Below are positions 1 through 10,664 of a stretch of 10,718 bases of DNA, one piece after another. The DNA is from an uncultured archaeon (GTDB taxonomy: Archaea; Asgardarchaeota; Lokiarchaeia; Sigyniarchaeales; SOKP01), in assembly GCA_964525635.1 (NCBI GenBank), contig CAZGJX010000123.1, forward strand, positions 1 to 10,718, given 5' to 3'. Each line of letters begins with the position of its first letter. Position 1 is the stretch's first letter. The notes below the pieces were generated by a model. It did not search any database. It saw nothing but the letters and a program-made list of their open reading frames with translations, and was not told where the DNA came from. Position numbers and translations under genes: made by a program.

Positions 1-23
1 AATGGATAACTTTTTCAAAAAAA

Positions 24-1094
24 TTAAAAAATTTTGTTAACTTGTAAACTTAAGAAATAAATAAATGATATATTATCAATTATATCAAATGGAGCTCCAA
101 ATTTTTTATCATTCTGAGGATCAATTATCATTACTTCTTTTTCATGATCAACAACAACATTCCAAGCAGTTTTAGCTCTATCATTTGTACCCCAGATAAT
201 TCCTAAGCCATGAGGATTAAATCTAATACCATTGTCATAAGCACTTTTAATAAATCTATATTTTAAAAGAAATGCATAATCATCACAATCAAAAGCTTCT
301 TTGATAAAGCTCTTTTTATCAATTTTATTATCATTAAGCTATGAAGTTATATCTGTTTGAGTGGGACAATGATAGATTTCATCGGCTATTATAAAAGAGT
401 AATCATTAGTAAACTTCCCCTCAAAGGCGGTTTCAATAATAGTTTTAATGTCATCTTTCGGCAATAAGGTTTTTATAAAAAAATTCTTTGATTTCTCTGT
501 ATTTAGCGTCTTTGTTATACCAGAACTTCTTACACCATCTTTAAACCATATATAAGTTCTATTCTTTTTGGAAATCCCAATATCAATAATATCGGAGGGA
601 GTCTTTTCACTACCTACAATTTTATAACTATAAGGAATTTTATCTCTATCGAGCCAATTATAATTTCCACAGCTTACGGTATTGTTATCATACCAAGCAT
701 AACATTTCCCTTCTGTAGATATAGCCATTCCTACAATTTTACTTGGATTTTGACCAGCGGGTAATGCATAATCCTCTAAGTCATCCTTACTACCGAGATT
801 TGTTGGTGAACCACAACTTACTTTATAATCTTTATACCATGTATAACATCTGTCGTTTTGATCGATTCCAATCGCTACGATTCCCTTATCAGGATCATTT
901 GGTGGATGATCATCTGGATATATAACATTTTTAAATTCTCTTGTACTTTTATTTAAAAAAGTTGAAGTACCTTCCATAATATATAATTTATCATCCACTT
1001 CGTCATAATACCAACTATATACTGTATTATCTTTGCTTGATATAGCAATTGCTATAATTTTTTTCATCATATATTTTGTCAATTTGGTTGCCAT
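24..1094 (-). pseudogene. Repeat (beta-propeller-like) domain fused to a MOA-lectin/Agglutinin_C-type papain-like domain; 356 codons, interrupted by one in-frame TAG (339-341)
   Basis: The ORF 339..1094 continues in the same frame past the TAG: ...HCPTQTDITS*LNDNKIDKKSFIKEAFDCDDYAFLLKYRF...HGLGIIWGTNDRAKTAWNVVVDHEKEVMIIDPQND...ISFIYFLSLQVNKIF, ending at TAA 24-26. The FDCDDYA / GIIWG / xAWN / I[DE]PQ motif order matches my recollection of the Marasmius oreades agglutinin C-terminal protease family. An SD-like AAGGTG lies 8-13 nt upstream of the ATG. Could be read-through rather than a true pseudogene. Confidence 0.75.
505..1060 (-). repeat. Four imperfect ~47-60 aa protein repeats (I[IV]xI[AG]I..x.[VC]Y.W[YF].D..VS.G...L), probable beta-propeller blades
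   Basis: IIAIAISSKDNTVYSWYYD; IVAIGIDQNDRCYTWYKDYKVSCG; IVGMAISTEGKCYAWYDNNTVSCG; IIDIGISKKNRTYIWFKDGVRSSG. Confidence 0.75.
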
Positions 1095-1101
1095 TTTAAA
1101 A

Positions 1102-1107
1102 CACCTT
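1102..1107 (-). promoter_or_regulatory. Putative Shine-Dalgarno (AAGGTG) for the gene starting at 1094
   Basis: Minus strand reads AAGGTG-TTTTAAA-ATG, with a 7-nt spacer. Confidence 0.5.
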
Positions 1108-1361
1108 AATTCTTTTGGTTTAATAAAAAATTTTTCAACTTTTTATTATATGGGTAAACTAAAAAAAGATTTATATAACCATTTAGACCGATTTTTTACA
1201 AATTTTATTAAGATATATAACAATGACTAAATAGAATAGATGTAGTGAGATGCTTATTTTCAGAGCAACTTCAAGAATATAAAAGTTAATTAAATTTAAA
1301 TAAATATTTTTCTTTACTTTTTTTCATAATTAAATTAAAAGTAAATTCAAGAGTAAAAATC

Positions 1362-1808
1362 TTATTTAAATCCTAAATATTCTTTAGCGATTATATTTGT
1401 TTGATATAAGATTTTTGGATTTTCCTTAATCATTTTTTTTAATCCTTTAATAGTAAACTCTTTAGGTTGAAATTCATGCAAACTCTCCTCCAAATAGTTT
1501 TTCAACTCTTCTTCATTCTCATTGGAAAAATTATCAAGATTAAAAAGATCTGTTTTCATTCCTTTATAATTATAATACATCCTTCTCCTAATATGTCCAT
1601 CCTAATATTTTGGAAATTCTATAGAAGGATTTAAATCTCTAAGAAAAAAACCTAACTCTAAGTAATAAGAATTCGAGTATGATGATTTTTATAATCCCAA
1701 TACATATATAAGCTCATTATTTTTCTTGTAATAAGAAGTGCTTTTTCTAATAAAACCTTTCGAAATTAATAGATTAGTTAGAAGTTTCTTGAATTTTAAT
1801 TTTTCCAT
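1362..1808 (-). pseudogene. DUF4304-like protein, 148 codons, with two in-frame stops (TAA 1689-1691, TAG 1602-1604)
   Basis: ATG at 1808 is in frame with ORF 1362..1580: MEKLKFKKLLTNLLISKGFIRKSTSYYKKNNELIYVLGL*KSSYSNSYYLELGFFLRDLNPSIEFPKY*DGHIRRRMYYNYKG... The pattern GF.....YY.....I.V..LQKS.Y...YY..LG resembles DUF4304, with the TAA at the expected Gln. Confidence 0.7.
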
Positions 1809-2178
1809 CAAATTCGCTTTCTTATATTAATAGTTAAATTATTTAATAAAAGTCATATATAAATGTTTTTTGACCAATAATTATATTAGAAAGTTATAAT
1901 CTAAAATTCTTTTTCTTTACTTTTCTTTTTAATTTAATGATGAATATATTGGAAAGTCCGAGAAGGTATTTTAGATCATCTATTCTGAGCTATAAATAAT
2001 ATATTTGATCTAAACGATCTTGAGAAAAATTAAATTTATAATTATCAAAAATGAGTTCAATTATTTATAAGCAGATATTAACAAGAATTTGTATTTAAAT
2101 TTATTTTAAAAAAAGAACATAAATTTTGAAAAACATTATATATTCTACCAATAAATAAAATTCAAAAGAACTCAGACA

Positions 2179-2439
2179 ATGAAGAATATCAATGAGGATA
2201 TAGTTAAATTATTATATGATATACGTAAGGGTAATTATATTAAGGATTTATGCTTCGAATATGAAACAGAAAGGATGGTTGGATTCAAGAGAATCTCAGA
2301 TAATAAATATTGTTCTATTCCAAGAGGATTTATACAGGAGGGATGGAGAAAAGATGACAAGGTACCTCAAAATATCTATATAAAGTCGTATTTAACATTC
2401 CTGAAAATCTATTGGAAAAAACGTGAAGACATTGGTTAA
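2179..2439 (+). CDS. Hypothetical protein (86 aa)
   Basis: ATG-started ORF with protein-like composition and raised GC/purine content relative to the flanks; no family recognised. Confidence 0.55.
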   Translation: MKNINEDIVKLLYDIRKGNYIKDLCFEYETERMVGFKRISDNKYCSIPRGFIQEGWRKDDKVPQNIYIKSYLTFLKIYWKKREDIG

Positions 2440-2639
2440 TAGATTTATATCATCACTTCCAATCATTTTGATGGAACAAGGTTGAAAACATTTTACTTTC
2501 TTTAAAGGTAGATATATATTTGGGAAAACAAATATCAAAACATGAAAGAAGATATAGATAATAAATACTAATTATCATTTATAGATCTCTCTAATAATAA
2601 ATCATAAAACCGAAATAAGTATATTGAAATGATTTTAAG

Positions 2640-2975
2640 TTACTTATATTTTTGAAATGAGGAAAATTTCCTACCTTGAGCTTCGATAATACATTTTTTA
2701 CCTTGAGGACTTAATTTCAAGATAGCATTATCTATAATCTCAATTGGAATACCTTCTTTTGGTAATACAATATGAAACCAATCAACAATTTCATTGTAAT
2801 ATTTCATTACATCATCACTTTCCAAATTGGGAGTAAAGACACCTGTTTTCAAGTCAATAATAATTTCAAATTCAGGAGTAAAGTGAAAAAATGGATCTAT
2901 CATATATCCTTGGTTACCGCTTAATGCATTTCTGAGTATTTGGTTAACTATTGACTTTAATCTACTTAATTTCAT
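2640..2975 (-). CDS. Hypothetical protein (111 aa)
   Basis: Intact ATG..TAA ORF with protein-like composition, flanked by AT-rich intergenic DNA; no family recognised. Confidence 0.7.
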   Translation of the reverse strand: MKLSRLKSIVNQILRNALSGNQGYMIDPFFHFTPEFEIIIDLKTGVFTPNLESDDVMKYYNEIVDWFHIVLPKEGIPIEIIDNAILKLSPQGKKCIIEAQGRKFSSFQKYK

Positions 2976-3090
2976 TTATTTAATCTTTTAATTTTATAAC
3001 GATTATAAGTATTTAAATATAGATTAATACTTTTTTCAAAGATAGAAAACAATTCATAAAGTTTAAAATATTATTTATTTTAGTTATATT

Positions 3091-3888
3091 ATGCGAAGAC
3101 CAATAGATCCTCTTGTAATTGGAGGGATGTTTATAACTGGAGACTTTTATAATCCTTTTATAGCTCAGATGATTGAATTCTTAAGAAGGAAAATTCTTAA
3201 GGTAGAACGTATTCCTCCAGAAGATCCAAAGAATAAAAAATGCAAATACTATCATAACTATAAATATTTTATATTAGAGCAAAATCTAGCTAATTTAAAA
3301 CCATATGAGAGATTTATCATAGATTTCATATAAAAATATAAAGATCAATCGAAAGAATACATAACCCATGAAGAAATAAAGAAAAATTCTGAATCAGATC
3401 CTGAATTTAAGCAAATAGCAATAAAATGGGCAGAAATAATTTTAGAGGAACTAAATAATCTGAATTACTTGAATAAAGATGATTTTCAGGATAAAAAAAG
3501 AAGAATTAAATATAGTCAATTAGGAAAAGTGAGTAGACTAGAATGGAAAAAATATCTAAATTATTTTAATAACACCTTAATCAAAGATTTTAATTAAAAA
3601 GATTTATCAATATGGAAAGAACATTTGACTTATGCAACATCTTTTAGTTGGGAGGGAGAGGGTGATGATGTATTTCAAGTTATGGATAAAATTTTTCCAA
3701 CCCAAGAAGAAAGGGAAAAATCTAATTTCTACATAAAAGGAATTGAGGGAAACGATAAATTTTTTTCAAAATTTAATTTTTTTGCTTCAATTGATTTTGG
3801 GAAAGCATTCATTGATTTTATTTGTGACTCATTAAGAAAAAGGGGATATAGTGTAAAGTTCCCTTATTTTTTATATTTTAAAAAATAG
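3091..3888 (+). pseudogene. DUF2207 C-terminal-like protein lacking obvious TM helices, 265 codons, with two in-frame TAA stops (3331-3333, 3595-3597)
   Basis: ORFs 3091..3333 and 3625..3888 share a frame, and the gap between them is open: FIIDFI*KYKDQSKEYITHEEIKK...KYSQLGKVSRLEWKKYLNYFNNTLIKDFN*KDLSIWKEHLTYATSF. The motifs AQMIEFLRRKILKVE, LKPYERFIIDF, SQLG...W..Y and IWKEHLTYATSF resemble DUF2207 (AT..DL.R.G.L.I / L..YE / T..G.....W..F..YL / WE.YL.YA.A.G). Family call is from memory. Confidence 0.65.
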
Positions 3889-3905
3889 TTTTTCCTTTTT
3901 TTTTT
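3889..3905 (+). terminator. Oligo-T tract between convergent genes, probable archaeal-type terminator
   Basis: TTTTTCCTTTTTTTTTT directly after TAG 3886-3888, in a 20-bp gap before the convergent stop at 3909. Confidence 0.4.
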
Positions 3906-4435
3906 AAGTTATTTTTCAACATTTTTTTTCTTTCCTGCTTTTTTATGTTTGTGTCTATCATATAGGATTTTTATCGAAATGCTAGCAAAACCACTTAAAC
4001 TACCATAAATTAGTGCCTGAATCCAAAAAGGGAATGGTTCTTCCTGAAAATTTACATGAATAGTCATCTGTGTGTATTCTAAATTATCACTCTCATCTAA
4101 AGCATTTTCACCTCCATCACTAGCACTGTAAGTTTCATTAATTAAATTATCAGGATCAATTGTTAATGTTAATATATATAATCCAGGATTAGTAATTTGT
4201 GTGCTTTCTTCAATTATGTGTCTCTGTTCATTTATTTCAGGATCTATAGGATTAAGAGAATTATCATATAATGTAATTCCAAGTGCTTCACATGTTATAG
4301 TTATTATTATGTTTTCAGCTCTCCAAATTCCATTATTTTCTATAATAAAATCTAAGACAAGGGTTTTTCCCTCATAAATATCATTCACTTCAAAATCTAT
4401 TATCCTTAAATTTGGCATAGGATACCAATATCTGT

Positions 4436-4926
4436 CAATAGGATCTGTTTGAATATTAATCTCGACATTATCTGCAAAATTATCATAATCTGAATCAGGA
4501 TTAGTAGCATTAGTTATATATCCATCAGCCCCCAAAATACATTCTTCACCATCTAATATGGAATCATCATCAGAATCAGGATCATCTGGAAAAGTTTGAT
4601 TATTATATTCATCTATATTAGATAATTGGTCGATATCTGGATCATCATTAGAATCATCTATAAGAGGATCTAATCCATATTGAATTTCCCAACCATCAGG
4701 CATTTCATCACCTTCAGAATCAGGATTATTTGGATCTGTGCTATAAATAGTTATTTCATCCCCATCATTCAACTCATCATCATCAGAATCAGGATCACTT
4801 GGATTTGTTTCATAATAACTAATTTCAATACCATCATTTAGGTTATCATTATCAGAATCTGAATCATTTGATAAGGTGCCATATAACTGCTCAGAATAAT
4901 TAGAAAGCATATCAAAATCAGTATCA
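4436..4926 (-). repeat. Thrombospondin type-3-like (bacterial TSP3) Asp-rich calcium-binding repeats
   Basis: DSDSDNDNLNDGIE, DPDSDDDELNDGDE, NPDSEGDEMPDGWE, DPDIDQLSNIDE, DPDSDDDSILDGEE, NPDSDYDNFADNVE. Confidence 0.8.
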
Positions 4927-5009
4927 AAATATTCTTGATTTTTAATTCTGCGAAAAGATATATCTCCTGACAATCCCTGCCAATAAATTCTCTGCCCAGT
5001 TAGATTTAA

Positions 5010-6092
5010 CTTTAGGGCAAATATATTTCCATCATGATTTGCTATGACGACATTAAGATTACCATCATTATTTAAATCCCCTAGCACAGGGGATGTAAAT
5101 ATTATATTCCCCGTAGAGTAATTCCAAGCTTTAGTACCATTTTCTCCATGAAAAATATAAAAATTCCCATCATGACAACCTATAATCACTTCAAGTTTTC
5201 CATTACCATTTACATCTCCTAGTGTAGGAGAAGAGCGCATTTCTTCTCCTGTGGTATAATCCCAGAGAAGAGTACCATTCTCACCATGAAAAGCATGAAT
5301 TGTTCCATCATTATTACCTATTACTACTTCAAGATCTCCATCACAATTAATATCTCCTAATGCGGGAGATGAAAAAATCTCATGTCCAGTTGTATAATCC
5401 CAGAAAAGAGTACCGTTCTTACCATGAAGAGTATAAACGTTTCTATCATTACTTGCAAAAATCACTTCAAGTTTTCCATCATTGTTCAAATCTCCAATTG
5501 CGGGAGAAGAAAAGATCTTATCACCTGTAGTATAATTCCAAAACTGAGTACCATTCTCACCATGAAGAGCGTAGATTTTACCATCAAAACTCCCAACGAC
5601 CACTTCAAGTTTTCCATCATTGTTCAAATCTGCAAGATTAGGAGATGAAATTATAAAATCTCCTGTCGCATAACTCTAGAAAAGAGTACCATTCTCACCA
5701 TGAAAAGCATAAGTTTTATTATCTTTACTACCTACAATCACTTCAACTTTTCCATTTCCATCTAAATCTCCAAAAGTAGGACAAGAACGTATTTCTTCTC
5801 CTGTTGTATAATTCCAGAAAATAGTACCATTCTCACCATGAAGAGCATAAAGATTCTTATCTCCACTCCCTATAATTACTTCAACTTTTCCATTACCATC
5901 AATATCTCCAATAGTAGGAGAACAACGAATTAAACCCCCCGTTGTATAATTCCAGAAAATAGTACCATTCTCACCATGAAAAGCATAAACTTTTCCATCA
6001 TTACTACCTATAATTACTTCAATTTTTCCATTTCCATTTATATCTCCTAATGCGGCAGAAGAATATATAGCATCTCCTGTTGTATAATTCCA
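5010..6092 (-). repeat. Eight tandem 138-bp (46-aa) FG-GAP-like repeats
   Basis: The conserved Trp codon recurs every 138 bp exactly (+ strand CCA at 6090, 5952, 5814, [CTA 5676], 5538, 5400, 5262, 5124). The DNA motif agtaccattctcaccatgaa is repeated. Confidence 0.9.
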
Positions 6093-6257
6093 TAATTGGT
6101 TATCATCCGTAGATATTTTTAATTTATCAGAAAAATTATCATATTTCTTAATTTCAATACTGAAAAAATTTACACTATTTTGAAATAATAACATAAAGAG
6201 AATAATTAATAACACAGCAAGAGTGTTCATTCTTATTTTTTTAAACCTTAAATTCAT

Positions 6258-6511
6258 ATATATAATTCCTCTATAATAAGAATAATAAATAATTATAATA
6301 ATTGAATTGAATAATATTTTTATTGATCTTTATAAAAGTAAAAATTGCAGATAATAAAATAATTTATCTACTCATACATGTATAATATATATCTTCTAAA
6401 TATATAATTATCAATTAAGTGAAGATATAATAAAGACAATATAAAAAATATAAATATTAATATTGATTTTAAAATCTAATTTAAAAAATAAAAATTCAGT
6501 AGTAGATAATA
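6258..6511. promoter_or_regulatory. Divergent AT-rich promoter region; SD-like GAGGA (minus strand, 6267-6271)
   Basis: 254-bp very AT-rich gap between divergent start codons, with several TATA-like boxes (e.g. TTTTATAAA near 6329); individual boxes cannot be assigned. Confidence 0.4.
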
Positions 6512-8224
6512 ATGGTAGATAAATTAGGTTATTTTTCATTAGTGTTACATACACATATTCCATGGGTATTAAATCATGGTATTTGGCCACATGGTACAAG
6601 TTGGTTAAATGAAGCAGCAGCAGAGTCCTATATCCCTCTTATTGATGAAATTTATAAGCTAATAAATGATGGTTACAATCCAAAAATGACTATAAGTATA
6701 ACCCCCGTATTATGTGAATCCCTACGTAATCCAGCATTTATTGGTGATTTTATGAACTATTTAGATCAAAAAATAAATACAGCACTACATGATCGATATG
6801 AATTTAAAAAAAATAATTATCGTTATGAGCGTATCAAGTTAACAGAGTGGTGGGAAGAATTTTATTCTAGAGTGAAAGATAGATTTATTAATGATTATAA
6901 TAAAGATATAATCGGGGAATTTAAGAAATTACAGGATAGAGGATATCTCGATATCATTACTTGTAGTGCTACTCATGGATATACTGCTCTACTTTCGCGT
7001 GATTCATCAATAGATGCTCAATACAAGATAGCTGTTGATAATTATAAAAAGCATTTTGGAAGACCTCCTACAGGAGCATGGCTTCCAGAATGCGCTTATA
7101 GACCAGGATATAGATGGAAAAATCTTATTACTAAAGAAGAATATGAACGTCCAGGAATTGAATATTTTCTAGCCAAGAATGGATTAAAATATTTTTTTGT
7201 TGATACAGTTTTACTTTTAGGTGGTAAATCTATGGGAGTCTATGCAGCTAGATTTCCATTATTAAAAGAATTATGGGAACAATTTGCTTCTCAATTTGAA
7301 GAAAAACCTCTAGATTTTAATAAATCTCAGTATGAAACATATTTAGTATCTTCTTCTTCACCTCAACCTCCCGTAGGATTTTTTACAAGAGATGAAAAAA
7401 CTGGGATTGTGGTCTGGTCAGGAGAGCATGGATACCCCGGATGTGCTGAATATCTTGATTTTCATAAAAAACACCTTCCAGGTGGCCTTAGATATTGGAA
7501 AGTTACTCATGCTAAAATTGATTTAGCTGATAAAATGCTTTATTGGCCTGATGATATTCCAAGAAAGTTAGATGAAAATGGAGGTCATTTTGTAAATCTT
7601 GTTAAAGATGTTTTAAGAGAATATAAAGATAAGAATGGACGTCCTGGAATTATATCAGCAATGTATGATACGGAGCTCTATGGGCATTGGTGGTTTGAGG
7701 GTCCATGGTGGATAAATCGAGTCTTAAGGTGGTTAGAAGATGATCCTGAAGTTGATTTAATTACTTCAAAGGAATATATGGAATTAAATCCTCCAAATAG
7801 AACGGTCCAACTCTTAGAAGGGAGTTGGGGGCAAGGTTCAAGTCATTGGGTGTGGTTTAATGAATGGACTACCTATGTTTGGGCTCATATATATGAATGT
7901 GAAAAAAAATGTGAAGAAATAATGACAAAACACGCAAATTCATCAGATCCTAATCTAATAAAGATTTTAAAACAATTAGCCCGAGAAAATCTTCTTTTAC
8001 AGAGTAGTGACTGGCCGTTTTTAATGACAACATGGACTGCAAGAGATTATTCAGAAAATCGAATTTCCCTACACTATGAAAATTTTAATAGATTATTTCA
8101 TATGGCTTCTAAATATGGAAATGGAGAATATGTTGATGAAGGAGAATGGCATTTTCTAGGGAAGTTACAACAAGAAAATGGAATATTTGAGGAAATTGAT
8201 ATTAAATCTTTTACCAGGAAATAA
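6512..8224 (+). CDS. Glycoside hydrolase family 57 1,4-alpha-glucan branching enzyme (with C-terminal DUF1957/BE_C domain)
   Basis: All five GH57 conserved regions are present: LVLHTHIPWV, AAAESYIPL, WLPECAY (nucleophile Glu193, with the branching-enzyme-type EC), YDTELYGHWWFEG (acid/base Asp386) and LLQSSDWPF. Also SATHGY and EGSWG. Similar in motif content to TK1436-type enzymes. Confidence 0.93.
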   Translation: MVDKLGYFSLVLHTHIPWVLNHGIWPHGTSWLNEAAAESYIPLIDEIYKLINDGYNPKMTISITPVLCESLRNPAFIGDFMNYLDQKINTALHDRYEFKKNNYRYERIKLTEWWEEFYSRVKDRFINDYNKDIIGEFKKLQDRGYLDIITCSATHGYTALLSRDSSIDAQYKIAVDNYKKHFGRPPTGAWLPECAYRPGYRWKNLITKEEYERPGIEYFLAKNGLKYFFVDTVLLLGGKSMGVYAARFPLLKELWEQFASQFEEKPLDFNKSQYETYLVSSSSPQPPVGFFTRDEKTGIVVWSGEHGYPGCAEYLDFHKKHLPGGLRYWKVTHAKIDLADKMLYWPDDIPRKLDENGGHFVNLVKDVLREYKDKNGRPGIISAMYDTELYGHWWFEGPWWINRVLRWLEDDPEVDLITSKEYMELNPPNRTVQLLEGSWGQGSSHWVWFNEWTTYVWAHIYECEKKCEEIMTKHANSSDPNLIKILKQLARENLLLQSSDWPFLMTTWTARDYSENRISLHYENFNRLFHMASKYGNGEYVDEGEWHFLGKLQQENGIFEEIDIKSFTRK

Positions 8225-8435: not shown

Positions 8436-10664
8436 TTGCTTATTAATGAAATTATTGGTATAGAAGAAAAATATGTTAAATTACTGAAAAAGGAAGGTAT
8501 CTCTCAGGTTGAAGATCTACTACCCTTATCTCAATATAAAATTAATCAATTAGCAGATAAAACAGGTATACCAGCAAAATTAATTGATACATGGCAAGAA
8601 CATGCAGATTTAATGAGAATTGAAGGAATTAATCCAGAATATGCATATGCATTAAATCAAATAGGGATTGATTCTGTAAAAGAATTTGCTAATAGAAATG
8701 CGAAAAGTACCTTTGATAGAGTAAAAGATTTTGCTAAAAAGAATCCTAATCTAATGAGTGAAACTCCAACATTAGGAGAAATAGAACTTTGGATTAAACA
8801 TGCTCAGCAAATTAAGAATTTAGAACCTACTGCGAAACCTAAAAAAGAAAAAAAACCCAAAGAAGAGAAAAAAGAGGATTATGGTAATTATGGACCTGAC
8901 TATTGGAATAATAAATGGGTACAATCACCAATAATATATGAAGGTAGAGCTTTAAGAGGTGAAGCTTATGATATGCAAATAGATGTAGATGTTAAAACAT
9001 TCATTAAAAAGAATGATGAGATACTTAAATTTATAATTGAACAATATGATCTTAAAAAAAAAACTAATAATGAAACAGCTTTAGCTTGTCAGAAATTCGT
9101 ATATAATTTCTTAAAATATAAATTTGATGAAGAATCATCGGAATGTCCGGAATTTTGGGAATTTCCATTTGAAGCTATTCAATTTGGCGTAGGTGATTGT
9201 GTTGCATATTATGAAGAAATCTTTACAAAAGAGGGTATTAAACAAATTGGAAACTTAAAAATAGGGGATGAGATTTTATCATATGATTTTACAAATCAAA
9301 AATTCTGCTATAAACCAATTACTAATATTTGGGAAAAAGGGAAATTAGATATTTGTAGAGTTTTGTTCAGAAATGGTCAGACTATTGATGTTTCAGAAAA
9401 TCATCCATTTTGGATTCGTCAAACTCAAAAAGATAGCATATATGAAAAGACTTATCTAAAAGATATCGACTTATTGAAATGGTGGAAAAGAAAGACGCCT
9501 ATAGCAAGAAAAATCCCTTATAATATAAAAGATATTGAATGGATAACAGAAGAACTTTGCTTTGTTATAGGCCATTTTCTTGCTGAAGGATGGCATGAAA
9601 AAGAAGGAAAAATTAGATCATCTGGATATGAATTACTAGAAAATATAATTCCAATTCTTGAAAAAAATGATATTCCTTATAGTGAATATACAAATACTTC
9701 AGGAGTTCCATGTATTACTTTTTTAAAATCTGAGTTTAAATCATTCTTAAGGTTATTTAAAGAAGATAGTTTTAAAATTCATATACCAGAAGTGATATTT
9801 CACTTACCAGAAAACAAGTTAGAAGCATTAATAAATGGATTTTATTTAGGGAATGGACATTATGGAAATTATCCTGATAAAAGAGGTTATGCATCAAATA
9901 AACAAGAAGTTCTATCAACTTCCTCAAAAAAATTAGCTGAAGATATTCAGAGAATGGGACTACAATTGGGAAAGACATATCATATATGGAAGCAAGTAAA
10001 ACATGGAGGACTTGGAAAAAAACCAATTTACAGAATAACTTATAATCCTAAAAGTCATTTTCTAAAAGAATATGGTTATCCTAACATAAGTGAAATATCA
10101 ATAAGAGAATATGAAAAAATTGGAAAAATTCGAATGCTAGATTTTGAAGTTCAAGATACTAATTCTTACGTCTTTAAAAATGGTATAATTGGACATAATT
10201 GTGAAGATGGTGCGATCTTAATTGCAGCTTTAATGATAAATGCAGGTGTTCCTTCATTTAGAGTTAAGGTTACTGCAGGTAGTGTATTGGCAGATCCAAA
10301 TGTAGCTCCCTCAGAGGATAATATTGGTGGACATGGATATGCTATTTATTTAGCAGATAGATCAGATTCAGAACGAGGGTTGGAATGGGTCATTTTAGAT
10401 TGGTGCTATTTACCTGATCCTGATACTCCAATTGAAAAAAAACCACTAGCTAAAAATGGAGGTCATGATAATGCATACAAAGATGTTTGGTTTACTTTTA
10501 ATGATGAATATAGTTGGGCTCAAAATGATTTTGAGGTTAAAGAAGGAAGAATCAGTAATAACCAAAAAGCAAAAAAGAAGGATGTAATCAGCGAAATAAA
10601 AAATATTGTAGATAAGGTCTTAAAGGATCTAAATCTAGTAGTAGAGGAGAAAAAGAAAAAATAA
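8436..10664 (+). CDS. DUF4332 (HhH-like) domain + transglutaminase-like cysteine protease, intein-containing precursor (742 aa; 408 aa after splicing)
   Basis: TTG start preceded by GAAGGA. Residues 1-126 match DUF4332 (I.EI.GI..KY..LL...GI...EDLL...W...ADLMRIEGI.PEYA..L...GIDSVKE.A.RN...P...EI..WI..A). A Lys/Glu linker follows. The spliced protease reads EFWEFPFEAIQFGVGD|CEDGAILIAALMINAGVP..RV...GGHGY...WVILDWC, giving a Cys-His-Asp triad. Confidence 0.88.
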   Translation: MLINEIIGIEEKYVKLLKKEGISQVEDLLPLSQYKINQLADKTGIPAKLIDTWQEHADLMRIEGINPEYAYALNQIGIDSVKEFANRNAKSTFDRVKDFAKKNPNLMSETPTLGEIELWIKHAQQIKNLEPTAKPKKEKKPKEEKKEDYGNYGPDYWNNKWVQSPIIYEGRALRGEAYDMQIDVDVKTFIKKNDEILKFIIEQYDLKKKTNNETALACQKFVYNFLKYKFDEESSECPEFWEFPFEAIQFGVGDCVAYYEEIFTKEGIKQIGNLKIGDEILSYDFTNQKFCYKPITNIWEKGKLDICRVLFRNGQTIDVSENHPFWIRQTQKDSIYEKTYLKDIDLLKWWKRKTPIARKIPYNIKDIEWITEELCFVIGHFLAEGWHEKEGKIRSSGYELLENIIPILEKNDIPYSEYTNTSGVPCITFLKSEFKSFLRLFKEDSFKIHIPEVIFHLPENKLEALINGFYLGNGHYGNYPDKRGYASNKQEVLSTSSKKLAEDIQRMGLQLGKTYHIWKQVKHGGLGKKPIYRITYNPKSHFLKEYGYPNISEISIREYEKIGKIRMLDFEVQDTNSYVFKNGIIGHNCEDGAILIAALMINAGVPSFRVKVTAGSVLADPNVAPSEDNIGGHGYAIYLADRSDSERGLEWVILDWCYLPDPDTPIEKKPLAKNGGHDNAYKDVWFTFNDEYSWAQNDFEVKEGRISNNQKAKKKDVISEIKNIVDKVLKDLNLVVEEKKKK
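9198..10199 (+). mobile_element. Class-1 intein with LAGLIDADG homing endonuclease domain (334 aa, residues 255-588)
   Basis: Block A CVAYYEEIFTKEG, block B VSENHPFW, block C VIGHFLAEGW, block E LINGFYLGNGH, block H STSSKKLAEDIQRMGLQLG, block F/G MLDFEVQDTNSYVFKNGIIGHN followed by Cys+1 (10200-10202). Removing it restores the canonical GDCED motif. Confidence 0.93.

What the first reader, a model, noticed from the sequence alone, without database searches (positions are those of the whole stretch)
24..6257. Six in-frame stop codons in four neighbouring genes with no frameshifts: clustered nonsense decay, read-through/recoding, or deamination signature
Seen: TAG 339-341, TAG 1602-1604, TAA 1689-1691, TAA 3331-3333, TAA 3595-3597 and TAG 5676-5678 each interrupt an otherwise continuous frame with recognisable motifs on both sides. 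There are no frameshifting indels despite many homopolymer runs, and the ~1310 codons of the two genes to the right have no internal stops. Where the residue can be inferred the change is a C:G>T:A transition (TGG>TAG at 5676; CAA>TAA at 1689 in LQKS). Inference, in order of my preference: (a) recent relaxed selection on an accessory region under a strong GC>AT mutation bias, as in slow-growing clonal sediment lineages; (b) cytosine deamination of template DNA or assembly artefact; (c) programmed read-through, amber recoding or RNA editing. A simple code change is disfavoured because TAA terminates most genes here and the inferred residues differ (Trp vs Gln).
Basis: partly seen in the sequence, partly recalled or inferred. 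Interest (0 to 1): 0.7.

Follow-up and report, generated by a model that had tools for sequence, protein, structure and literature searches.

The report
Cluster of nonsense-broken accessory archaeal genes
Four neighbouring dispensable genes of a salt-marsh Asgard archaeon each carry one or two genuine premature stop codons, and the evidence points to ordinary recent knock-out mutations rather than a special way of reading the genetic code.

Summary
Each interrupts a frame that homologues or paralogues read through with a sense residue. Logan contigs of two to three salt-marsh runs carry the same letters at five sites; the sixth (1689) is bridged only by the possible source run. This argues against an assembly or damage artefact.

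The aligned residues differ: Leu, a variable column, Gln, Lys, Gln, Trp. TAA and TAG are the normal terminators of this 26.8% GC Promethearchaeota genome. I found no suppressor tRNA and no PylS, and the aRF1 is canonical. Recoding is therefore unlikely.

Genome-wide I count 76 isolated in-frame stops supported by paralogues, on 54 contigs. Their partners are mostly codons one base away from a stop. C:G>T:A transitions are about fourfold over-represented among them, but more than half are transversions.

Three of the four genes were not found in 40 relatives. This is the densest such cluster in the genome. The lack of frameshifts is only marginally unusual (P about 0.06).

Verdict: young nonsense pseudogenes in an accessory region. 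The scan reached the same reading before for other pieces of this genome.

The parts
27..1094 (-). Gene 1: lectin-like protein (repeats plus an Agglutinin_C / Lectin_C_term domain), 356 codons, broken once.
   Evidence: Translation. Pfam (PF18021, 8.6e-10). A full-length 351-aa homologue, P0002, aligns across the stop. Not found in 40 relatives.
339..341 (-). In-frame TAG in gene 1. The only homologue has Leu at this place.
   Evidence: Contigs of X1, X2 and X3 bridge the site with no differing letters.
1365..1811 (-). Gene 2: DUF4304 protein, 149 codons, broken twice. It ends at TAA exactly where its homologues end.
   Evidence: Translation. Pfam PF14137 (8e-15) covers residues 12-100, which include both stops. 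There are 379 hits at E<=1e-3, most of them 140-150 aa long.
1689..1691 (-). In-frame TAA in gene 2, at a nearly invariant Gln of the GLQKS motif.
   Evidence: Alignment A1: Gln in at least 90% of the 27 homologues. Only the X1 contig bridges the site with at least 31 nt on both sides. The X3 contig ends 13 nt beyond it.
1602..1604 (-). In-frame TAG in gene 2, at a variable column (V/T/I/F/A/W in homologues).
   Evidence: Contigs of X1 and X3 bridge the site.
3091..3885 (+). Gene 3: 265-codon protein with a weak DUF2207_C match, broken twice. Its only relative is an intact paralogue on contig C75.
3331..3333 (+). In-frame TAA in gene 3. The paralogue has Lys (AAA).
   Evidence: Contigs of X1, X2 and X3 bridge the site.
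3595..3597 (+). In-frame TAA in gene 3. The paralogue has Gln (CAA).
   Evidence: Contigs of X1, X2 and X3 bridge the site.
3912..6257 (-). Gene 4: secreted FG-GAP beta-propeller surface protein with a CARDB-like domain and a C-terminal membrane anchor, 782 codons, broken once after blade 3.
   Evidence: Pfam PF13570 (4e-76) and PF13517 (1e-47).
5676..5678 (-). In-frame TAG in gene 4, at the conserved Trp of the propeller repeat.
   Evidence: Trp stands at this place in the seven other repeats of the same protein. Paralogues have TGG. Contigs of X1 and X3 bridge the site.
6512..8224 (+). Intact GH57 branching-enzyme gene. It is conserved in relatives and marks the edge of the decaying stretch.
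   Evidence: It is 65-80% identical in Promethearchaeota MAGs.
8436..10664 (+). Intact DUF4332 / helix-hairpin-helix gene that carries an intein with a LAGLIDADG domain.

Best explanation
The six stops are ordinary nonsense point mutations. They have become the form assembled in the sampled salt-marsh population of a Promethearchaeota (Asgard) archaeon. They lie in four neighbouring accessory genes that the organism no longer needs. Translation most likely ends at each stop, so the genes are young pseudogenes or yield truncated products.

The AT-rich codon usage makes stops easy to reach by a single base change. A GC>AT mutation bias adds further Trp>stop and Gln>stop changes. The long open frames after each stop mean that the inactivation is recent.

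Shown: the stops are real, they sit at sense positions of homologues, and I found no recoding machinery. Inferred: loss of function, relaxed selection, and a recent date.
For: 1. The stops are real. Logan contigs of runs X2 and X3, and of X1 (the possible source), match the window with 0 differing letters across the stop sites. The only difference listed in 6.5 kb is 5063 C>A in X2.

2. The aligned residues are sense residues and differ from site to site: Leu, a variable column and a nearly invariant Gln, Lys and Gln, and Trp.

3. TAA and TAG are working terminators. They end 2159 and 414 of the 2992 frames of at least 150 codons. Gene 2 itself ends at TAA where its homologues end.

4. No decoding machinery was found.
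- ARAGORN without introns finds no suppressor tRNA.
- One of the two 'tRNA-Stop(tta)' calls made with introns is a tRNA-Lys(UUU). It has a CUUUUAA anticodon loop and an insertion of about 30 nt that relatives lack.
- The other 'tRNA-Stop' call has no Rfam match.
- No PylS reaches the curated cut-off.
- The aRF1 is full length and has NIKS, YxCxxxF and GGQ.

5. The same thing occurs genome-wide. There are 76 isolated in-frame stops with paralogue support on 54 contigs (37 TAA, 25 TGA, 14 TAG). Their partner residues are mostly one base away from a stop: K, Q, E and Y for TAA, and W for TAG.

6. The spectrum fits mutation. Among 26 one-step cases at 50% identity or more, the counts are G>A 7, C>T 4, A>T 6, T>A 4, G>T 4 and T>G 1. 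Under equal rates, C:G>T:A would make up 10%.

7. The genes are accessory. Genes 1 and 3 were found in 0 of 40 relatives. Gene 2 gave one weak partial hit.

8. Seven further broken genes were found by a Pfam domain that crosses the stop. They are also accessory types: transposase, AlkZ-like, two DNA_alkylation, a PPDK_N gene with two stops, and a methyltransferase.
Against: - No close orthologue exists for any of the four genes, so dN/dS downstream of the stops could not be measured. Loss of function is therefore inferred, not shown.
- All downstream frames stay open for 87 to 588 codons, which would also fit continued translation.
- Six stops without a single frameshift is slightly odd. My frameshift search is about half as sensitive as my stop search (52% against 99%). 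After correcting for that, the genome-wide ratio is about 1.7 stops per frameshift, which gives P about 0.06 for six stops and no frameshift.
- This is the only 6.5-kb span in the genome with four same-frame long-ORF pairs. That calls for a local cause such as block-wise loss of need, which I cannot show directly.
- Only contigs were available, not raw reads, so minor sense alleles could be hidden.
- The four runs may belong to one sampling campaign.
- Published work argues that many bacterial in-frame stops stay under purifying selection (PMC7918605, abstract read).
Confidence: 0.8

Rival explanations
1. Leaky termination. The stops are real, but near-cognate tRNAs read them through at a low rate. 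The four genes would then still make some full-length protein and stay under selection. The stops would act as expression dampers, as proposed for bacteria.
For: The downstream frames are fully open. Belinky et al. 2021 report widespread in-frame stops under purifying selection in bacteria (PMC7918605, abstract read). All three TAA sites in the window are followed by AAA. No frameshifts accompany the stops.
Against: The six sites share no read-through context. The base after the stop is C, G, A, A, A and G. Genes 2 and 3 carry two stops each, which would multiply the loss of product. Gene 4 would lose its signal peptide on re-initiation. Genome-wide, the base after in-frame stops looks like ordinary coding sequence. 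The partner residues fit random one-step mutation.
Confidence: 0.1
2. Split but working genes. The pieces on either side of a stop are made separately and still function, for example the 193-aa secreted N-terminal piece of gene 4 or the 251-aa piece of gene 1.
For: Public gene calls list the 251-aa and 72-aa pieces as proteins (P0001, P0003). A TTG-started 572-aa frame follows the gene 4 stop.
Against: The stops cut inside single domains or repeats. DUF4304 spans both stops of gene 2, and the gene 4 stop lies inside a propeller blade. The listed full-length homologues that align end to end are single chains. The downstream piece of gene 4 would lack a signal peptide.
Confidence: 0.05
3. Changed genetic code or dedicated recoding: an amber or ochre suppressor tRNA, pyrrolysine, or an altered release factor.
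For: ARAGORN run with introns allowed printed two 'tRNA-Stop(tta)' calls. A second, truncated aRF1-like gene exists on contig C93. The organism does recode TGA as selenocysteine, since it has a tRNA-Sec.
Against: One 'tRNA-Stop' is a tRNA-Lys(UUU), and the other has no Rfam support. No PylS reaches the cut-off. The main aRF1 has canonical motifs. TAA and TAG end 86% of the long frames. The residues aligned to the stops differ from site to site. None of the six stops is TGA.
Confidence: 0.02
4. Artefact: assembly error, chimeric consensus, or cytosine deamination of the template DNA.
For: Three of the five inferable changes in the window are C:G>T:A.
Against: Contigs assembled separately from other runs (X2, X3) are letter-identical across the sites that they bridge. 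Two of the five inferable changes are transversions. Genome-wide, 15 of 26 are transversions.
Confidence: 0.02

Closest known systems
Young nonsense pseudogenes in accessory or paralogous genes of prokaryotes. This is the general concept, from my own knowledge. The scan gave the same reading for other pieces of this genome (e1-5620649, e1-5621288, e1-5621107).
   Same: Single-base changes turn sense codons into stops in dispensable genes. The frames are otherwise intact. There is no recoding machinery. The spectrum is enriched for GC>AT.
   Different: Here four adjacent genes carry six stops, which is the densest cluster in this genome. No frameshift accompanies them.
In-frame stops retained under purifying selection in bacterial genes (Belinky et al. 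2021, PMC7918605; abstract and outline read).
   Same: In-frame stops sit inside otherwise intact prokaryotic genes.
   Different: That work rests on conservation and dN/dS across close genomes. No orthologues close enough exist for these four genes, so the defining test could not be run. Two of the four genes have two stops each.
Selenocysteine recoding in Loki-type Asgard archaea. I did not read the papers; they are named in earlier notes e1-5621237 and e1-5620755.
   Same: It is the same organism, which has a tRNA-Sec. TGA aligns with Cys at 5 of the 25 isolated in-frame TGA sites.
   Different: That system concerns TGA only and needs a SECIS element. All six stops here are TAA or TAG.
Stop-codon reassignment (TAG or TAA read as an amino acid, or pyrrolysine). 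General knowledge.
   Same: Stops lie inside conserved frames.
   Different: The codons still terminate most genes. The aligned residues are inconsistent. There is no cognate tRNA and no PylS, and the aRF1 is canonical.

Membership tests
Nonsense-mutation pseudogene | The in-frame stop lies where homologues carry a sense codon, inside a domain. | tested here: met
   All six sites meet this.
Nonsense-mutation pseudogene | The stop is present in the organism's DNA and is not an artefact. | tested here: met
   Contigs of X1, X2 and X3 are identical across the sites. Site 1689 is bridged by X1 only. Raw reads were not available.
Nonsense-mutation pseudogene | Loss of function, or relaxed selection downstream (dN/dS near 1, no full-length product). 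| not testable with these tools
   No close orthologues were found. No RNA run was listed.
Stop-codon reassignment | The codon is no longer used as a terminator. | tested here: not met
   TAA ends 2159 and TAG ends 414 of the 2992 long frames. Gene 2 ends at TAA at the same place as its homologues.
Stop-codon reassignment | One consistent amino acid aligns with the codon. | tested here: not met
   TAA aligns with K 7, Q 6, E 5, Y 5 and others. TAG aligns with W 6, K 2 and others. In all 76 sites were examined.
Stop-codon reassignment | A cognate suppressor tRNA and/or an altered release factor is present. | tested here: not met
Pyrrolysine (TAG) recoding | PylS is present. | tested here: not met
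   The best TIGR02367 match scores 35 bits against a cut-off of 178. The pylT, pylB, pylC and pylD genes were not searched separately.
Programmed stop-codon read-through | The stop is conserved in orthologues, with a read-through context or a downstream structure. | tested here: inconclusive
   There are no orthologues to compare. No shared context appears at the six sites. Downstream RNA structure was not examined.

The most novel reading that the evidence does not exclude
The stops are tolerated rather than lethal to the genes. On this reading, termination by aRF1 in this Asgard lineage is leaky enough that nonsense alleles persist as low-expression variants. The lineage's mutation spectrum would also be unusually poor in indels, which would explain six stops with no frameshift in the genome's densest cluster of broken genes.
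Probability: 0.08. Interest if true: 0.5.

Novelty: new member of a known kind. Interest (0 to 1): 0.15.

Why it matters
For annotation, these four genes should be flagged as interrupted. They should not be listed as eight small proteins.

The wider census gives a first rough picture of how genes decay in an uncultured Asgard archaeon. It comprises 76 paralogue-supported in-frame stops, roughly 1.7 stops per frameshift after correction, and a GC>AT excess. It also gives a baseline against which real recoding, such as this organism's selenocysteine sites, can be told apart.

It does not change what is known about decoding.

Tried and rejected
- **RNA evidence.** No RNA holder was listed for the stretch, so expression could not be examined.
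- **Closer homologues.** The word-index search found nothing for gene 2. For gene 3 it found only the genome's own paralogue.
- **Synteny.** None of the window's other genes lies beside the GH57 gene in the 61 related loci. The only hit there was gene 3 against its own paralogue locus, L002. No orthologous region could be compared.
- **First stop count.** The first count of 538 in-frame stops was inflated. Out-of-frame and antisense matches inside 186-195-nt tandem coding repeats caused this. I filtered down to 84 and then 76 sites.
- **ATG-distance estimate.** I tried to estimate how many of the 196 same-frame pairs are real from the distance to the next ATG. That overestimated. Pfam showed that many are neighbouring genes or antisense shadow frames.
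- **Stop load in a relative.** The crude pair density in 241 kb of a same-genus genome (9 pairs, 37 per Mb) is close to that of this genome (44 per Mb). The measure is mostly noise, so it says little.
- **Loose end at position 328.** A loose end next to the first stop in X1 and X2 was followed up. Its 30-nt continuation is not in this genome. More than half of what was laid in X1 at 90% likeness runs on into unlike sequence, so I treat it as a partial match from other DNA.
- Its result was discarded (see steps_to_tell).
Full report
**What the window is**

The window is a complete 10,718-nt contig, C123, of a 4.45-Mb assembly with 245 contigs and 26.8% GC. The tool rates the assembly 100% complete with 3% contamination. 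The closest public copies of its GH57 gene lie in MAGs labelled Promethearchaeota (65-80% identity), so the organism is an Asgard archaeon. The stretch occurs in 23 listed salt-marsh metagenome runs, and six of them hold half or more of the sampled words.

**Checking the observation**

Each frame is a single gene by homology.

- **Gene 1 (27-1094, minus strand).** It has an Agglutinin_C / Lectin_C_term domain. It aligns from residue 2 to 347 with a 351-aa protein, P0002, at 55% identity, and Leu stands opposite the TAG.
- **Gene 2 (1365-1811, minus strand).** It is a DUF4304 protein, and the Pfam match covers both stops. The exhaustive search gave 379 hits at E<=1e-3, most of them 140-150 aa long. 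In an alignment with 27 of them, the TAA lies on a Gln kept in at least 90% of rows (GLQKS). The TAG lies on a variable column. The gene ends where the homologues end.
- **Gene 3 (3091-3885, plus strand).** Its only relative is an intact 259-aa paralogue on contig C75, at 59% identity. The paralogue has Lys (AAA) and Gln (CAA) opposite the two TAA codons.
- **Gene 4 (3912-6257, minus strand).** It is a secreted FG-GAP propeller protein with a C-terminal anchor. Its TAG replaces the Trp that the seven other repeats of the same protein carry, and paralogues have TGG there.

None of these alignments needs a frameshift. The two genes to the right are open over 570 and 742 codons.

**Are the stops real?**

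Logan contigs of four runs were laid on positions 1-6500. The only differing letter listed is 5063 C>A in X2. Counting only records with at least 31 nt on both sides, the sites are bridged as follows:

| Site | Bridged by |
|---|---|
| 339 | X1, X2, X3 |
| 1602 | X1, X3 |
| 1689 | X1 (X3 ends 13 nt beyond) |
| 3331 | X1, X2, X3 |
| 3595 | X1, X2, X3 |
| 5676 | X1, X3 |

X1 may be the source sample, and the runs may come from one campaign. Contigs also hide rare alleles. Even so, an assembly or damage artefact confined to one data set is excluded.

**Is it recoding?**

- TAA ends 2159 and TAG ends 414 of the 2992 frames of at least 150 codons.
- ARAGORN finds a tRNA-Sec but no suppressor tRNA.
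- With introns allowed, ARAGORN printed two 'tRNA-Stop(tta)' calls. The one on C185 scores 54.9 bits as a tRNA in Rfam and has the anticodon loop CUUUUAA, which reads as Lys(UUU). In 16 of 24 relatives its two halves match. Where both halves are listed they abut without the roughly 30-nt insertion, so aragorn had misplaced an intron. The one on C22 has no Rfam match at E<=1.
- No PylS reaches the curated cut-off.
- The full-length aRF1 carries NIKS, YxCxxxF and GGQ. I recognised these motif names from memory.
- The six sites share no context.

**The genome-wide picture**

I ran all 3581 stop-to-stop frames of at least 120 aa against the genome with tblastn. This gave 538 in-frame stops with at least 25 aligned columns on each side.

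Many of these lay in tracts of 186-195-nt tandem coding repeats, where out-of-frame matches create false stops. I then required at least 50 open codons and at least 30 aligned columns on both sides, which left 84 sites. Dropping sites inside the dense tracts left 76 sites on 54 contigs: 37 TAA, 25 TGA and 14 TAG.

The residues opposite these stops are mostly one base away from a stop. TAA aligns with K 7, Q 6, E 5 and Y 5. TAG aligns with W 6. TGA aligns with C 5 and W 4, and the Cys cases are probable selenocysteine sites.

For 26 sites with a paralogue at 50% identity or more and a one-base difference, the changes are G>A 7, C>T 4, A>T 6, T>A 4, G>T 4 and T>G 1. From the genome's codon usage, equal rates would give 10% C:G>T:A and 18% T>G. 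Under equal rates, 5.8% of all single-base changes in sense codons would make a stop. So there is a clear GC>AT excess, but most events are still transversions.

In the window, three of the five inferable changes are C:G>T:A. One is A>T. One is opposite Leu.

**Frameshifts**

The same tblastn table gives 25 frameshift keys, about 22 of them distinct places. I ran a control on 300 paralogue pairs, putting in either a stop or a one-base deletion. For positions at least 50 codons from the alignment ends, my rules found 164 of 166 stops but only 87 of 166 frameshifts.

After correction the ratio is about 1.7 stops per frameshift. The chance of six stops and no frameshift is then about 0.06 (my arithmetic). 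This is mildly unusual and not compelling.

**Clustering**

There are 196 places in the genome where two frames of at least 80 codons are separated by one stop. Contig C123 holds the only 6.5-kb span with four of them.

Many of the 196 are not broken genes. 44 have paralogue support. Of the 152 without it, 77 have no ATG within 12 codons after the stop. I put 59 of those 77 through Pfam, with this result:

- 7 have one domain crossing the stop.
- 1 is a cheB gene cut in its linker.
- 16 are neighbouring genes or have a match on one side only.
- 35 have no family.

With about 53 supported sites, a uniform model gives roughly 0.001 for such a cluster over 685 windows. With all 196 it gives about 0.15 (my arithmetic). 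A uniform model is naive, because dispensable genes sit together.

Genes 1 and 3 were not found in any of 40 relatives, and gene 2 gave only one weak partial match. None of the window's other genes lies beside the GH57 gene in the 61 related loci.

**Conclusion**

This is a block of accessory genes that lost its use and picked up nonsense mutations recently. Codon usage and a GC>AT bias make such mutations frequent in this genome. The frames after the stops are still open because little time has passed. Low-level read-through cannot be excluded without expression data (PMC7918605, abstract read).

Two literature searches listed no paper among the 15 shown for each on pseudogene load or read-through in Asgard archaea. 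I did not search further.

Earlier notes of this scan reached the same reading for three other pieces of this genome.

Noticed in passing
G000 contig C54:19098-20390 (minus strand) and 25170-26273 (plus strand): There are two compact arrays with 20 intron-less tRNA genes in all. That is more than half of the 37 intron-less tRNAs aragorn finds in the whole genome. The tRNA-Lys(UUU) in the array has C instead of U before the anticodon. This may be a mobile or viral tRNA array, or a mis-binned contig. It holds no suppressor tRNA.
   Followed up: partly
G000 contig C185:4179-4282 (L068:200-303): This is a tRNA-Lys(UUU) with an insertion of about 30 nt just after the anticodon stem. In same-genus and same-family relatives the two halves abut without it. 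ARAGORN misreads the gene as 'tRNA-Stop(tta)'.
   Followed up: partly
window 8436-10664 (+): A DUF4332 / helix-hairpin-helix protein carries an intein with a LAGLIDADG homing-endonuclease domain (Pfam hits at residues 262-588).
   Followed up: no
window 1689, 3331, 3595: All three in-frame TAA codons of the window are followed by AAA. Genome-wide, in-frame TAA shows no excess of A at the next base (14 of 40).
   Followed up: partly
G000 C81:13136-14593; C3:59197-60027; C102:18-791; C57:4062-5198; C22:28769-29953; C17:27308-28486; C192:2066-2821: Further broken genes were found by a Pfam domain that crosses the stop. They are a PPDK_N / PEP-utilising enzyme gene with two TAA, two DNA_alkylation genes (one TAG, one TAA), an AlkZ-like glycosylase (TAG), a DDE transposase (TAG) and a methyltransferase (TAA). 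A cheB gene is cut by a TAG in its linker.
   Followed up: partly
G000 C43:14350-15090, C1:5840-6410, C93:12200-13070, C67:14900-15240: These tracts hold tandem coding repeats of 186-195 nt (about 62-65 aa) in large surface-protein genes. They produce many false in-frame stops in six-frame self-comparisons.
   Followed up: partly
G000 C87:9593 and 11162; C109:8156 and 9730; C12:13788: In-frame TGA codons align with Cys (TGT) of paralogues. They are probable selenocysteine sites, which fits the tRNA-Sec on C50:9907-9999.
   Followed up: no
G000 C93:5731-6351 (-): A truncated aRF1-like paralogue (130 bits, model positions 23-255) has one in-frame TGA.
   Followed up: no
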